The translations under genes were made by a program, and so were the position numbers. The notes under the pieces were generated by a model. The model ran no database searches. It was not told the DNA's origin and saw only the letters and a program-made list of their open reading frames with translations. Below, piece by piece: positions 36,183 to 42,273 of a stretch of DNA of 64,000 nucleotides. Position 1 is the first letter of the stretch. Every line of letters starts with the position of its first letter. The DNA is from Escherichia coli (lineage in GTDB: Bacteria > Pseudomonadota > Gammaproteobacteria > Enterobacterales > Enterobacteriaceae), in the NCBI RefSeq assembly GCF_013122565.1, contig NZ_CP053258.1; one strand, written 5' to 3'.

Positions 36183-38207
<2,025 letters not shown>

Positions 38208-38208
38208 G

Positions 38209-38427
38209 ATGGAAAAAGAGCAGCTGATTGAAATAGCCAATACGATAATGCCGTTTGGCAAATACAAAGGGCGTCGCTTAATCGACCTGCCGGAGGAGTA
38301 TCTGCTGTGGTTTGCCCGCAAAGATGAGTTCCCGGCAGGGAAGCTCGGTGAGCTAATGCAAATCACGCTGCTGATTAAAACCGAGGGGCTGACGCAACTG
38401 GTCCAGCCCCTGAAGCGTCCGCTTTAA
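38209..38427 (+). CDS. ypeB: Small protein YpeB (DUF3820)
   Basis: Trimmed to ATG 38209 (MEKEQLIEIANTIMPFGKYKGRR...), 72 aa, immediately after ligA stop. Confidence 0.8.
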   Translation: MEKEQLIEIANTIMPFGKYKGRRLIDLPEEYLLWFARKDEFPAGKLGELMQITLLIKTEGLTQLVQPLKRPL

Positions 38428-39422
38428 GCTTTATCGGCGCTGCTTTCCTGCTGCGCCTGTAACTGTTCGGTCTGGCGTTTGTATCGACGCGCCAGCACCG
38501 CACAGACCATCAATTGGATCTGATGGAAAATCATCAGGGGCAGCACCATCATACCGATCACCGATGTGGGGAACAGAATGTTTGCCATCGGGATGCCATT
38601 TGCCAGACTCTTTTTCGAACCACAAAAGACGATAGTAATTTCATCTGCTTTATTGAAGCCCAGTCGGCGTGCCATAAAGACGTTAACTACAATCACGATA
38701 GCCAGAAGAACGCAGCTGGCCACCACGATAAACAGCAATGATCCCCAGCCAACTTTATGCCAGATACCATTAACGACGGCTTCGCTGAACGCTGTATAAA
38801 CCACCAACAGAATGGACGTCTGGTCAGTTTTCGCAATCCATTTTTTATTGCGCGACACCCAGTCACCAATCCACGGCCGGGAAAGATGCCCTAACACAAA
38901 CGGCAGCAACAGTTGCAGCATAATTTTACCGACCTGCTCAAGGCTGCCCCCTGCACCGTGAACATTCATCACCAGGCCAACCAACAATGGTGAAAGGAAA
39001 ATCCCCAGCAGGCTGGATGCCGACGCAGAACAAACCGCCGCCGCGACGTTACCGCCCGCCATTGACGTGAAGGCGATTGCAGACTGCACGGTCGCGGGGA
39101 GAATGCACAAGTAGAGAAAACCGGAGTAGAGCATCGGGTCGACATTTACCGGTTTCCACCAGGCAAACAGCACGCCCAGAATCGGAAACAGCACGAAGGT
39201 GCTGCACATTACCCACAAATGCAGTCGCCAGTGACCACCGCCAGCAATAATCGCCTCACGCGACAACTTCGCGCCGTGCATAAAGAACAGCAGGGCAATC
39301 GCTGCGGTGGTCAGATTTTCAAAGAAGGGGACGAAATCGCCTCTGGCCGGAAAGAAAGAGGCCAACAACACCACCGTGATCAGGGTTAAGGTGAAAGGAT
39401 CGAGGATACGAAAAAGTTTCAT
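38424..39422 (-). CDS. yfeH: Bile acid:sodium symporter (BASS) family transporter YfeH
   Basis: 332-aa polytopic membrane ORF. Confidence 0.9.
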   Translation of the reverse strand: MKLFRILDPFTLTLITVVLLASFFPARGDFVPFFENLTTAAIALLFFMHGAKLSREAIIAGGGHWRLHLWVMCSTFVLFPILGVLFAWWKPVNVDPMLYSGFLYLCILPATVQSAIAFTSMAGGNVAAAVCSASASSLLGIFLSPLLVGLVMNVHGAGGSLEQVGKIMLQLLLPFVLGHLSRPWIGDWVSRNKKWIAKTDQTSILLVVYTAFSEAVVNGIWHKVGWGSLLFIVVASCVLLAIVIVVNVFMARRLGFNKADEITIVFCGSKKSLANGIPMANILFPTSVIGMMVLPLMIFHQIQLMVCAVLARRYKRQTEQLQAQQESSADKA

Positions 39423-39939
39423 AAAGACTCCAGATGATCGATGCTTTCATTGTGCGTTGTTCTGATTGATAAATAAAACTGAATTGCTTATCAATTTGTG
39501 CGCGAGGAGTGTGAGTGAGTTGCTCGCTCGCTTCGACTGGTTGGCAGAGCGGGGGAGGATATCCCGGATGAGACAAATAAGACGTTCGACAAGAGAATCA
39601 GGTGACTACAGAAAAAATCACAGGATGTTATTACTGCTGATGTTCATGTCGGTTTTCGCGTTATCAGAACTGGTTTTAGAACTGCTATTTAATCGATAAT
39701 GCCATTCTGCAGGAAAGCTTTACCTACTTTATTATTTGCGGTGTGGTAAAACCTGGTCACCAGAGGCAGGTTTAATACCAGACGCTGTCTTTTATCAGAT
39801 ATCCCATGTAAATAATAAATGCAATGAATATTAATTCATTATGTATTTATTTTGTGATTGTTTGGTGTTACTAGTTTGTTGGACAAATAACAACTCTAAC
39901 TAATACATAAACCTTGCATAGTGACAGAGTATCGATCTG

Positions 39940-39977
39940 AATGTTTTCAACATTGATATCAAATTGCAATTGATATC
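39940..39977. promoter_or_regulatory. Candidate operator upstream of the NupG-like transporter: inverted repeat ATGTT-ttc-AACAT followed by two TTGATATC palindromes spaced 17 bp
   Basis: Read directly: gaATGTTttcAACATTGATATCaaattgcaaTTGATATCcg, 75-110 bp upstream of the 40051 start. Confidence 0.35.
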
Positions 39978-40050
39978 CGTGGTAAAAAGTATTGGTAAAT
40001 TTGATGAATTTCCGGATATTTAAAGGGGCGGCTCAAAGACGAAGGGGAAG

Positions 40051-41307
40051 ATGGTGAATCTAAAACTACAGTTAAAAGTTCTTTCATTTCTGCAATTCTT
40101 TTTGTGGGGAAGTTGGCTCAACACATTCGGTTCTTATATGTTTATCACGCTGCGTTTTAAGGGCGAAGATATAGGCGCAGTCTACAGTACACTGGGTATC
40201 GCAGCATTAATAACATCAACGTTATTTGGTATCGTGGCCGATAAATGGATTAGTGCTAAATGGATATATGCCGCTTGTCATTTATTTGGCGCGATAACAT
40301 TATTTATCGCAGCATCGGTTACCACGCCTTCGGCAATGTTCATTGTCATTTTACTTAACTCTCTTGTGTATATGCCAACACTCGGTTTGAGTAATACAAT
40401 TTCCTATTACCGCCTACAAACAGCGGGGATGGATATTGTGACAGAATTTCCGCCAATCCGTATCTGGGGCACGATTGGATTTATTGTCGCAATGTGGGCG
40501 GTTAGCCTGGCTGGTTTTGAATTAAGTCATATGCAATTATATATCGGTGCGGCGGCTTCATTAGGCTTGAGCCTGTTCACGTTGACTTTACCAACTGTAC
40601 CAGTGGCGAAATCTAACCAGGCGCAAGGAATGATAGATGTTCTCGGATTGCGTGCATTTACACTGTTTAAAAACAGCAAAATGGCGATTTTCTTTATCTT
40701 TGCCATGCTGCTCGGGGCAGAGTTACAAATTACCGGGATGTTTGGTAATACATTTCTCCACAGCTTTGAGAGCGTTCCAGAGTTTACCAATAGTTTTGTT
40801 GTTACCCATGCTTCTATTCTGTTATCAATTTCTCAGATATCCGAAGTCTGTTTCATTCTTGCCATTCCTTTTTTCCTGAAAAAATACGGTATCAAAAATG
40901 TCATGCTGATGAGCATGGTGGCCTGGATGCTGCGTTTTGGTTTATTCGCTTATGGCGATCCTTCATTCGGTGGTACCATTCTGTTAATTCTTTCGATGAT
41001 TGTTTATGGCTGTGCTTTTGACTTCTTCAATATATCTGGCTCGGTATTTGTTGAACAAGAAGTTGATCCATCGATTCGTAACAGCGCTCAGGGCGTTTTC
41101 CTGATGATGGCCAATGGTTTTGGTTGTATTCTGGGCGGTTTTATCAGTGGTAAAGTCGTCGATTATTTAACAACGGATGGCAATCCACAGTGGTCAACCA
41201 TTTGGCTGGTATTTGCCGGATATTCACTGGTTCTGGCTCTCGCATTTATGGTGTTGTTTAAATATAAACACAACGGTAACCCGACAACGTCCGGTCATTT
41301 CGCCTGA
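40051..41307 (+). CDS. Nucleoside:H+ symporter, NHS family (NupG/XapB paralog)
   Basis: 418-aa 12-TM-like ORF; near-collinear similarity to recalled NupG and to XapB encoded 2 kb downstream (e.g. LQFFLWGSWL, FPPIRIWGTIGFI, GCAFDFFNISGSVFVEQEV). AT-rich codon usage. Confidence 0.85.
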   Translation: MVNLKLQLKVLSFLQFFLWGSWLNTFGSYMFITLRFKGEDIGAVYSTLGIAALITSTLFGIVADKWISAKWIYAACHLFGAITLFIAASVTTPSAMFIVILLNSLVYMPTLGLSNTISYYRLQTAGMDIVTEFPPIRIWGTIGFIVAMWAVSLAGFELSHMQLYIGAAASLGLSLFTLTLPTVPVAKSNQAQGMIDVLGLRAFTLFKNSKMAIFFIFAMLLGAELQITGMFGNTFLHSFESVPEFTNSFVVTHASILLSISQISEVCFILAIPFFLKKYGIKNVMLMSMVAWMLRFGLFAYGDPSFGGTILLILSMIVYGCAFDFFNISGSVFVEQEVDPSIRNSAQGVFLMMANGFGCILGGFISGKVVDYLTTDGNPQWSTIWLVFAGYSLVLALAFMVLFKYKHNGNPTTSGHFA

Positions 41308-41361
41308 TACGGAGTTTATCAAAATTAATAATGTTTTATAGGATTCGCAAAAGAGGAAGTT

Positions 41362-42273
41362 ATGGCAAATCAATTGTATAACCAGTGTCGGGTTTATTGT
41401 GCACCCTGGCGATTAGATGCTTTAAATTTAAATGATATCATTGATCAATGGATTGACGAGGGGCTGTTGCCGCCCCTGATCCATACTTTTCTTCCATATC
41501 GCGATGATGCCGGTGCCTCCAGTGAAGAAGAGATTTTTGTTAACGATGTCGCGAATATGGATAACAGTGTTGGGGTTATCGGTTATTTCGATGGTGGAAC
41601 CTATGATTCCGGTTATGCATGGGCTTTAGGGATGCCTGTTCACCTGGTAACGACAGACTTTCTTATATGGGCAGCGGGGAATTCTTCAGAGTTTTATCCT
41701 ATAAGTAAGCTGATGAATTATGTGGCAAAAGTGGTTTCTGTGTCAGATTCCGATACCAGTATCAGCAATTATCGTGAACAAACCGACGATATCATCAAGC
41801 GTGCGTTGCAAATTTTTCAACAAAATTTAATCGCCGACTTCGGCACGACGATTAATCCAGCAGTACCGGTTACTCCATTGCCGATTGAGTATGACTACTA
41901 TATTGATCCTAACTTTATGTATACCGAACCCTCTCGGGACTTACTGGTGAAGATCAAAGATGCGATCATTAGTGCAGGTAAGACTTTCATCGTTGGCGAC
42001 AACATGAATGATATTGCGACTGATATTGATAACTTAAGAAAATCCAGACAGGCCATCTTTTATTCCGATACCTTTGAGCCGAATGTTGACACCGGCATTA
42101 TGAATGGTATTGCCTATGCATTAGGACAGCAATCGATTATTTATTGTAGCAAGCAACAAAAATATCAATCTGCGCTCGCGACAGATTATTTAAATTTAAT
42201 GATTACCTGGTCGTCAACGGTGGCGCATTCATTTGCGGAACTTGAAACATTGATTGGTAACACAGAAAAATAA
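41362..42273 (+). CDS. Hypothetical protein with two tandem nucleoside 2-deoxyribosyltransferase-like repeats
   Basis: 303-aa ORF with RBS agaggaag; internal repeat ([DS]G..[YI]A[WY]ALG at ~aa 80-95 and ~aa 255-270) resembling the NDT/DNPH1 D-x-G-..-E-x-G-Y-A-x-A-x-G-K-P-V motif. Fold assignment is inference. Confidence 0.6.
   Translation: MANQLYNQCRVYCAPWRLDALNLNDIIDQWIDEGLLPPLIHTFLPYRDDAGASSEEEIFVNDVANMDNSVGVIGYFDGGTYDSGYAWALGMPVHLVTTDFLIWAAGNSSEFYPISKLMNYVAKVVSVSDSDTSISNYREQTDDIIKRALQIFQQNLIADFGTTINPAVPVTPLPIEYDYYIDPNFMYTEPSRDLLVKIKDAIISAGKTFIVGDNMNDIATDIDNLRKSRQAIFYSDTFEPNVDTGIMNGIAYALGQQSIIYCSKQQKYQSALATDYLNLMITWSSTVAHSFAELETLIGNTEK

What the first reader, a model, noticed from the sequence alone, without database searches (positions are those of the whole stretch)
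38424..38427. Convergent genes ypeB and yfeH overlap at their stop codons
The ypeB stop (TAA, 38425-38427, plus strand) and the yfeH stop (TAA on the minus strand, 38424-38426) share two nucleotides, so the two convergent transcripts must overlap at their 3' ends with no intergenic terminator. This could give mutual antisense interference.
Basis: seen in the sequence. Interest (0 to 1): 0.2.

Follow-up and report, generated by a model that had tools for sequence, protein, structure and literature searches.

The report
Overlapping stop codons of ypeB and yfeH
Two real E. coli genes that face each other share four bases at their stop codons, a common arrangement already annotated and catalogued; each gene's likely transcript-ending hairpin lies inside the other gene's coding sequence.

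Summary
ypeB (38209-38427, +) ends with TAA at 38425-38427. yfeH (39422-38424, -) ends with TAA at 38424-38426. The coding sequences share TTAA and the stop codons share two bases. RefSeq and K-12 MG1655 annotate the same geometry, and the junction is identical to K-12 over +-120 nt. It is ordinary: 4 bp is the commonest overlap length for convergent genes, E. coli has 58 convergent overlaps (PMC2174442), and yfeH-ypeB is already listed among 165 convergent excludons of MG1655 (PMC12288877).

New here: the 4-nt overlap is kept in 57 of 80 related species loci, mostly Enterobacteriaceae. Pantoea and Rahnella instead have a 30-68 nt spacer holding a canonical bidirectional terminator. In the overlap taxa two hairpins appear to replace it.
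- One lies inside ypeB codons 59-68 (38384-38411). Its synonymous sites are frozen, and on the yfeH strand it is followed by CGGUUUUAAU.
- One lies inside the yfeH tail codons 322-329 (38436-38457). Its wobble pairs fit only the ypeB strand.

So "no intergenic terminator" is true, but terminator-like elements are not missing; they are embedded. I predict a transcript overlap of about 90 nt. Antisense interference is untested. Low interest, already known.

The parts
36192..38207 (+). ligA coding sequence (NAD-dependent DNA ligase), the upstream gene of the ligA-ypeB unit
   Evidence: 671-aa ORF. Annotated as ligA in the matching E. coli records.
38209..38427 (+). ypeB coding sequence (72 aa, DUF3820/PF12843). 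It starts 1 nt after the ligA stop and ends with TAA at 38425-38427.
   Evidence: Translation. Pfam PF12843, E = 4e-29. Same coordinates relative to ligA and yfeH in RefSeq.
38424..39422 (-). yfeH coding sequence (332 aa, SBF-like transporter). Its stop codon TAA is the reverse complement of 38424-38426.
   Evidence: ORF. Pfam SBF_like, E = 4e-113, residues 8-316; the tail 317-332 lies outside the domain.
38424..38427 (.). TTAA tetramer shared by both coding sequences (the two stop codons are offset by 1 nt)
   Evidence: Sequence. The same YTAR geometry occurs in 57 of 80 related species loci, as TTAA, TTAG, CTAA and CTAG.
38384..38411 (-). Hairpin 1: AGGGGCUG-N12-CAGCCCCU inside ypeB codons 59-68, 13-40 nt downstream of the yfeH stop. 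Candidate 3'-end-forming stem-loop of the yfeH transcript.
   Evidence: Perfect 8-bp inverted repeat. Folding energy -15.9 kcal/mol. 95.7% of cells paired across 61 species. Stem codons are frozen at synonymous sites: Gly60 GGG 59/59, Pro67 CCC 59/59, Leu61 CTG 58/59, Gln66 CAG 53/54. In yfeH of the same taxa, 0 of 153 comparable codons are that constrained.
38374..38383 (-). Tail CGGUUUUAAU that follows hairpin 1 on the yfeH strand (ypeB codons Ile56-Lys57-Thr58). The UUUU run is at 38377-38380.
   Evidence: Tail C-N-G-UUUU-R-AU in most of the 61 species. Lys57 is AAA in 57 of 58, whereas the other Lys codons of ypeB vary freely (entropy 0.6-1.0).
38436..38457 (+). Hairpin 2: GGCGC.GC-N6-GC.GCGCC inside yfeH tail codons 322-329, 9-30 nt downstream of the ypeB stop. 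Candidate 3'-end stem-loop of the ligA-ypeB transcript; weak in Escherichia.
   Evidence: Folding energy -13.4 kcal/mol; the tail UGUAACUGUUCGG is poor in U. In 45 species 90.8% of cells are paired, 0 of 500 shuffles reach this value, and the innermost pair switches GC (30) to CG (12). There are 57 wobble cells valid only on the + strand against 5 valid only on the - strand. In Enterobacter the stem is 8 bp and is followed by AGCUUUUC.

Best explanation
This is a compact tail-to-tail gene junction, not a special device.

Shown by comparison:
- Relatives outside the core Enterobacteriaceae (Pantoea, Rahnella) separate ypeB and yfeH by a 30-68 nt spacer that holds one canonical bidirectional intrinsic terminator.
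- In the sampled Enterobacteriaceae that spacer is absent and the two reading frames abut in a YTAR tetramer.

Inferred about persistence: once formed, the tetramer is a mutational trap. The only single-base changes that keep both stop codons are T/C at position 1 and A/G at position 4, and exactly these variants are seen. Purifying selection on the two stop codons alone is therefore enough to keep the overlap.

Inferred about 3'-end formation (from conservation, position and strand-specific wobble pairs; not shown by RNA mapping):
- Hairpin 1, inside ypeB codons 59-68 and followed by CGGUUUUAAU on the yfeH strand, ends or protects the yfeH mRNA near 38374-38380.
- Hairpin 2, inside the non-domain C-terminal tail of yfeH, does the same for the ligA-ypeB mRNA near 38460-38470. 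In Escherichia hairpin 2 is weak and its tail is U-poor, so Rho is likely to help there.
- The two mRNAs are then predicted to be complementary over about 90 nt.
For: Geometry and gene reality.

Conservation: 57 of 80 species loci have the -4 overlap, 3 have a +2 gap, 13 have gaps of 6-165 nt and 7 lack an adjacent yfeH.

Outgroups: the spacers contain AAAACGGCCCGC-loop-GCGGGCCGUUUU or AAAGGCGCUGA-loop-UCAGCGCCUUU, folding at about -21 to -35 kcal/mol on both strands. Species with intermediate gaps (Erwinia 6-7 nt, Buttiauxella 10 nt) already carry the yfeH-sense hairpin inside the ypeB 3' coding end. Buttiauxella also has a canonical ypeB-sense terminator inside the yfeH tail.

Hairpin 1: frozen synonymous sites that coincide exactly with the stem and the U run, against a background of 0 of 153 such codons in yfeH. 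Compensatory variants occur: GGGGUUG/CAACCCC in L032 and AAGGGCUG/CAGCCCUU in L033 and L044. The Pantoea, Erwinia and Hafnia outgroups encode Lys-Pro (AAACCG/AAGCCG) where the overlap taxa have CAGCCC, and form no such stem.

Hairpin 2: pairing, covariation and + strand-only wobble pairs.

Literature: 4 bp is the modal convergent overlap length, and 23 of 116 convergently overlapping E. coli genes have predicted rho-independent terminators inside the partner gene (PMC2174442). yfeH-ypeB transcripts overlap in at least 50% of 58 MG1655 RNA-seq sets (PMC12288877).
Against: - No mapped 3' ends were available for either gene.
- The consensus terminator scan did not call either hairpin. Hairpin 1 has a 12-nt nominal loop, and its U run starts 3 nt after the stem.
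- Folding energy does not tell the strand of hairpin 1: the + strand is slightly more stable in 50 of 61 species. Its wobble asymmetry is weak (12 cells against 5).
- Hairpin 1 shows very little variation, so classical covariation support is thin (2 pairs with double changes).
- RNAalifold on the hairpin 2 alignment gave only a weak consensus (-4.25 kcal/mol, 5 pairs). I chose the hairpin 2 structure after folding + strand sequences, which biases the strand test.
- The window's own hairpin 2 has z = -1.4 against shuffles.
- The 80 loci are the closest relatives of 380 confirmed matches, so the sample is biased.
Confidence: 0.6

Rival explanations
1. Excludon. The complementary 3' ends are a selected regulatory device: transcription of one gene lowers expression of the other by RNA polymerase collision and/or RNase III cleavage of the RNA duplex. 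This would give mutually exclusive expression of ligA-ypeB and yfeH.
For: yfeH-ypeB is in the MG1655 'excludome'. That paper's abstract describes this mechanism for excludons in general. The overlap has been kept across many genera.
Against: - The listing shows only overlapping read coverage, not regulation.
- ligA is an essential housekeeping gene (established knowledge), which is a poor candidate for being shut off by a minor transporter gene.
- Conservation of the tetramer is fully explained by selection on the two stop codons.
- Conserved hairpins on both sides look like devices that limit read-through, not ones that promote it.
Confidence: 0.12
2. Hairpin 1 does not serve yfeH. Its frozen synonymous sites would reflect a function on the + strand or in the DNA. 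Candidates are a stabilising or pausing stem-loop near the 3' end of the ligA-ypeB mRNA, a protein-binding palindrome, or a translation-level constraint on ypeB.
For: The + strand version folds slightly better in 50 of 61 species. Four Cedecea-type sequences have a pair that is a wobble only on the + strand.
Against: - On the + strand the hairpin lies inside the ypeB reading frame, 14 nt before the stop. An mRNA trimmed to it would lack a stop codon.
- There is no U run after it on the + strand.
- The conserved AAA of Lys57 makes sense only as the U run on the - strand.
- 12 sequences have G.U on the - strand, which is an A.C mismatch on the + strand.
- Outgroups place a yfeH-sense terminator at the equivalent distance from the yfeH stop.
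Confidence: 0.12
3. Both transcripts are ended by Rho, acting on untranslated antisense RNA beyond each stop codon. The hairpins then only block 3'-to-5' exonucleases and mark the processed ends, rather than acting as intrinsic terminators.
For: - Both downstream regions are C-rich relative to G. C/G is 1.1-1.8 on the + strand and 1.3-2.1 on the - strand, in 78-nt windows.
- The U tracts are imperfect in Escherichia.
- Trimming of Rho-dependent transcripts back to a stem-loop is the subject of PMC6061677. I recall that finding from my own knowledge; only the paper's header was returned here.
Against: Many relatives have good U tracts right after hairpin 2 (AGCUUUUC, AGUUUUUC, CUUUUCUCU). Lys57 AAA, which supplies the U run after hairpin 1, is frozen. 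A pure exonuclease block would not need either.
Confidence: 0.25

Closest known systems
4-bp convergent (tail-to-tail) gene overlaps of prokaryotes, the YTAR class (Lillo and Krakauer 2007, PMC2174442)
   Same: Two stop codons on opposite strands offset by one base in TTAA. The partner's coding sequence has to carry any termination signal. That paper counts 58 convergent overlaps in E. coli and finds predicted rho-independent terminators for 23 of the 116 genes involved.
   Different: Nothing in kind. Added here for this pair: distribution across species, an outgroup with a spacer, and synonymous-site evidence for the embedded hairpins.
Convergent excludons (ExcludonFinder, PMC12288877)
   Same: yfeH-ypeB is itself in that paper's list of 165 convergent pairs of MG1655 with overlapping transcription.
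   Different: An excludon in the strict sense implies mutual repression. That has not been shown for this pair, and the conserved hairpins suggest a bounded overlap.
Bidirectional intrinsic terminators between convergent genes
   Same: The outgroup junctions (Pantoea, Rahnella) have exactly this: one GC-rich hairpin flanked by an A tract and a U tract that serves both genes.
   Different: The window has no shared hairpin. It has two separate hairpins, each usable on one strand, and each inside the other gene's coding sequence.

Membership tests
4-bp convergent overlapping gene pair | Both overlapping reading frames are real protein-coding genes | tested here: met
   Pfam PF12843, E = 4e-29 for YpeB. 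SBF_like, E = 4e-113 for YfeH. Orthologues found in 80 loci for ypeB and 73 for yfeH.
4-bp convergent overlapping gene pair | Stop codons on opposite strands offset by 1 nt within a YTAR tetramer | tested here: met
   TTAA at 38424-38427. Same in K-12.
Convergent excludon | Transcripts of the two convergent genes overlap in vivo | not testable with these tools
   Reported for MG1655 from RNA-seq coverage (PMC12288877). The junction sequence is identical to the window. No RNA data could be analysed here.
Convergent excludon | Expression of one gene lowers expression of the other (transcriptional interference or RNase III processing) | not testable with these tools
   No expression or RNase III data are accessible through these tools, and none were found in the literature searched.
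Intrinsic (Rho-independent) terminator, hairpin 1 on the yfeH strand | Stable GC-rich stem-loop shortly after the stop codon | tested here: met
   8-bp stem, -15.9 kcal/mol, 13 nt after the yfeH stop. -11 to -21.7 kcal/mol in 61 species.
Intrinsic (Rho-independent) terminator, hairpin 1 on the yfeH strand | U-rich tract immediately 3' of the stem | tested here: inconclusive
   The tail is CGGUUUUAAU: four U starting at the fourth base after the stem. It is conserved, but the consensus scan did not call it.
Intrinsic (Rho-independent) terminator, hairpin 2 on the ypeB strand | Stem-loop followed by a U-rich tract | tested here: inconclusive
   The window has a stem with a U.U mismatch (-13.4 kcal/mol) and the tail UGUAACUGUUCGG, which is not U-rich. 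In Enterobacter, Cedecea and Buttiauxella relatives the stem is 8-10 bp with the tail AGCUUUUC or UUUUGUUUCUU.
Intrinsic terminator (both hairpins) | RNA 3' ends map a few nt after the stem, independent of Rho | not testable with these tools
   The term-seq supplements that could be read contain no ypeB or yfeH rows.
Bidirectional terminator | One hairpin flanked by an A tract 5' and a U tract 3', usable from both strands | tested here: not met
   The window has two separate hairpins. Hairpin 1 has the A-rich flank on the + strand only upstream, with no U tract after it. The feature is met in Pantoea and Rahnella outgroups.
Any Rfam RNA family | Match to a curated covariance model | tested here: not met
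   No match with E <= 1 in 37800-39800 on either strand.

The most novel reading that the evidence does not exclude
The reciprocal arrangement (each gene's terminator hairpin written into the other gene's codons, giving a fixed duplex of about 90 nt between the two mRNAs) is itself selected as a regulatory coupling between the ligA-ypeB unit and the yfeH transporter, and has been kept across Enterobacteriaceae.
Probability: 0.1. Interest if true: 0.4.

Novelty: already known. Interest (0 to 1): 0.15.

Why it matters
It matters little. The overlap is a routine feature of compact bacterial genomes. It is present in every annotation of E. coli, and this pair is already catalogued as having overlapping transcripts.

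The modest value of this work is as a clean worked example. When a spacer with a bidirectional terminator is lost, 3'-end hairpins can be rebuilt inside the neighbouring coding sequences. There they freeze synonymous sites: Gly GGG, Pro CCC, Leu CTG and Lys AAA in ypeB.

This is relevant to people who recode genes, since synonymous recoding of the ypeB 3' end could disturb yfeH termination. It is also relevant to studies of selection on synonymous sites.

Tried and rejected
- Consensus promoter/terminator scan of 37800-39700. It found seven terminator-like sites, all on the - strand, and none at the junction hairpins. The one at 38342-38329 lies in ypeB codons whose synonymous sites vary freely, so I dropped it.
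- Rfam search of 37800-39800 on both strands: no match.
- Published 3' ends. The supplements of SMRT-Cappable-seq, TERMITe and Adams 2021 hold no ypeB or yfeH rows. The Dar and Sorek 2018 and ExcludonFinder supplements are not held.
- Full-text searches for yfeH and ypeB gave only the ExcludonFinder list and a sigma-54 ChIP table.
- Using folding energy to decide which strand hairpin 1 acts on: uninformative.
- The strongly folding + strand segment 38469-38500 (CUGGCG/CGCCAG; z = -3.8 for 38415-38520). I rejected it as a selected element because yfeH codons 311-317 show normal synonymous variation and several genera break the stem.
- C/G composition as a pointer to Rho. Both antisense directions are C-rich, so it does not discriminate.

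Full report
**1. The observation**

The window is Escherichia DNA. A 601-nt probe across the site matches 5425 of 5426 complete E. coli genomes at 95-99% identity, and ligA, ypeB and yfeH are annotated under the match.

The sequence at 38420-38429 is cgcTTTAAgc. ypeB ends ...CCG CTT TAA, with TAA at 38425-38427. The 332-aa ORF on the minus strand ends at 38424, so its stop codon is the complement of TTA at 38424-38426.

Both genes are real. YpeB matches Pfam PF12843 (E = 4e-29, residues 3-68) and YfeH matches SBF_like (E = 4e-113, residues 8-316). RefSeq gives the same geometry for strain RM8352 and for K-12 MG1655 (yfeH 2526946..2527944, ypeB 2527941..2528159). The window is identical to MG1655 over +-120 nt around the junction. 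The ypeB start is ATG 38209, one base after the ligA stop.

**2. Is it unusual?**

No. Lillo and Krakauer (PMC2174442) report the following:
- 4 bp is the modal overlap length in prokaryotes.
- E. coli has 58 convergent overlaps.
- 23 of the 116 genes involved have a predicted rho-independent terminator, which must then lie in the partner's coding sequence.

The pair yfeH-ypeB is also already listed among the 165 convergent "excludons" of MG1655. These are pairs whose RNA-seq coverage overlaps in at least 50% of 58 transcriptomes (PMC12288877).

**3. Comparative anatomy of the junction**

A scan of one genome per species with YpeB returned 80 loci. A script located both stop codons in each, with these results:
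- 57 loci have the same 4-nt overlap. They include Escherichia, Salmonella, Citrobacter, Enterobacter, Klebsiella, Raoultella, Kluyvera, Kosakonia and Cedecea. All four legal tetramers occur among them.
- 3 loci have a 2-nt gap.
- 13 loci have gaps of 6-165 nt (Pantoea, Erwinia, Rahnella, Buttiauxella and one Hafnia).
- 7 loci have no adjacent yfeH.

The only single-base changes that keep both stop codons are T/C at the first position and A/G at the fourth position of the tetramer. These are exactly the variants seen. Selection on the two stop codons therefore explains the persistence without any function for the overlap itself (inference).

In the outgroups with spacers of 30-68 nt, the spacer is a textbook bidirectional intrinsic terminator. 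Examples are UAAcaAAACGGCCCGCauuuGCGGGCCGUUUUcc in Pantoea and AAAGGCGCUGAuaUCAGCGCCUUU in Rahnella. These fold at about -21 to -35 kcal/mol on both strands.

**4. Hairpin 1, inside ypeB**

A perfect 8-bp inverted repeat AGGGGCTG/CAGCCCCT lies at 38384-38391 and 38404-38411. It covers ypeB codons 59-68 and sits 13-40 nt downstream of the yfeH stop. On the yfeH strand it folds at -15.9 kcal/mol and is followed by CGGUUUUAAU.

Across 61 Enterobacteriaceae sequences 95.7% of stem cells pair. Variation is scarce, but some of it is compensatory: GGGGUUG/CAACCCC in L032 and AAGGGCUG/CAGCCCUU in L033 and L044.

The stronger evidence is at synonymous sites:

| ypeB codon | Usage across species | Role |
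|---|---|---|
| Gly60 | GGG in 59/59 | stem |
| Pro67 | CCC in 59/59 | stem |
| Leu61 | CTG in 58/59 | stem |
| Gln66 | CAG in 53/54 | stem |
| Lys57 | AAA in 57/58 | supplies the U run on the minus strand |

The other Gly, Pro, Leu and Lys codons of the same gene have codon entropies of 0.47-1.95 bits. In yfeH of the same taxa, none of 153 conserved codons of at least four-fold degenerate amino acids has entropy <= 0.12.

The Pantoea, Erwinia and Hafnia outgroups encode Lys-Pro (AAACCG/AAGCCG) where the overlap taxa have Gln-Pro (CAGCCC), and form no such stem. Erwinia (gap 6-7) and Buttiauxella (gap 10) carry different yfeH-sense hairpins in the ypeB 3' coding end.

Which strand hairpin 1 acts on is not settled by energy, since the plus strand is slightly more stable in 50 of 61 species. 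It is only weakly favoured by wobble pairs: 12 cells valid only on the minus strand against 5 valid only on the plus strand. The assignment to yfeH rests on three points:
- the frozen U run on the minus strand;
- the position just past the yfeH stop;
- the fact that on the plus strand the hairpin lies inside the ypeB reading frame, with no U tract after it.

**5. Hairpin 2, inside the yfeH tail**

A hairpin lies 9-30 nt after the ypeB stop on the plus strand. In the window it is GGCGC.GC-N6-GC.GCGCC at 38436-38457, folding at -13.4 kcal/mol with the tail UGUAACUGUUCGG. It lies in yfeH codons 322-329, beyond the SBF_like domain, which ends at residue 316.

Most relatives have a hairpin here:
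- Enterobacter has GGCGCGGG-UCUCUU-CCUGCGCC followed by AGCUUUUC.
- Cedecea-type genomes have different arms with U-rich tails.
- Buttiauxella has AGUGGCAGC-UUUG-GCUGCCACU-UUUGUUUCUU.

On a 45-sequence alignment the following hold:
- 90.8% of cells pair, and 0 of 500 shuffles reach this value or the covariation score.
- The innermost pair switches between GC (30 sequences) and CG (12 sequences).
- 57 wobble cells are valid only on the plus strand against 5 valid only on the minus strand.

There are caveats. RNAalifold gave only a weak consensus. I derived the structure from plus-strand folds. The Escherichia version is the weakest, with z = -1.4.

**6. Best-supported picture**

The ancestral spacer with its bidirectional terminator was lost in the lineage leading to Enterobacteriaceae, and the two reading frames came to abut in a YTAR tetramer. 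Each gene's 3'-end stem-loop now lies in the partner's codons.

From this I predict a transcript overlap of about 90 nt (about 38375-38465). This agrees with the published listing of overlapping coverage, but it has not been measured here. Whether the ends are made by intrinsic termination, or by Rho followed by trimming to the stem-loops, cannot be told from sequence. Both downstream regions are C-rich relative to G.

Mutual antisense regulation remains a possibility without evidence. ligA is essential (established knowledge). The conserved hairpins look like devices that limit read-through rather than promote it.

**7. Verdict**

The thing itself is ordinary and already annotated and catalogued. 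The embedded, conserved hairpins are a tidy example of a known phenomenon, not a new kind of system.

Noticed in passing
window 39423-42273: The usual divergent LysR regulator gene yfeR next to yfeH (present in K-12 and in strain RM8352) is absent. In its place are a nucleoside permease gene (40051-41307) and a nucleoside 2-deoxyribosyltransferase gene (41362-42273), followed by xapA and xapB. This arrangement matches only 16 of 5426 complete E. coli genomes. The yfeH upstream region, and probably its regulation, therefore differ from K-12.
   Followed up: partly
window 37846-37862 (+), inside ligA: Sigma-54-type motif TTGGCATTGTCGTCGCA, about 347 nt upstream of the ypeB start. The K-12 version (TTGGCATTGTCGTTGCA) is intragenic sigma-54 ChIP-seq site IS30 of Bonocora et al. 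2015, listed as lying in ligA 343 bp upstream of ypeB (PMC4591121; position). It might give ypeB a transcript of its own.
   Followed up: no
window 38205-38211: The ligA stop (TGA 38205-38207) and the ypeB start (ATG 38209) are separated by a single base. In 32 of 59 related species the ypeB start codon is GTG. This suggests co-transcription and translational coupling of ypeB with ligA.
   Followed up: no
L067, L072, L079 (Erwinia) around 2700-2740; L060 (Buttiauxella) around 2690-2790: These genera have independent solutions to the same problem. In Erwinia the last six YpeB codons (RGHQAP) are themselves the yfeH-sense hairpin CGGGGCC-N4-GGCCCCG followed by UUUC or UUUU. In Buttiauxella a canonical ypeB-sense terminator lies inside the yfeH tail.
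   Followed up: partly
window 38469-38500 (+): A strong local fold, GGUCUGGCG-N11-CGCCAGCACC (z = -3.8 for 38415-38520), lies in yfeH codons 311-317 (ARRYKRQ). Those codons show normal synonymous variation and several genera break the stem. It is probably a by-product of the coding sequence.
   Followed up: yes
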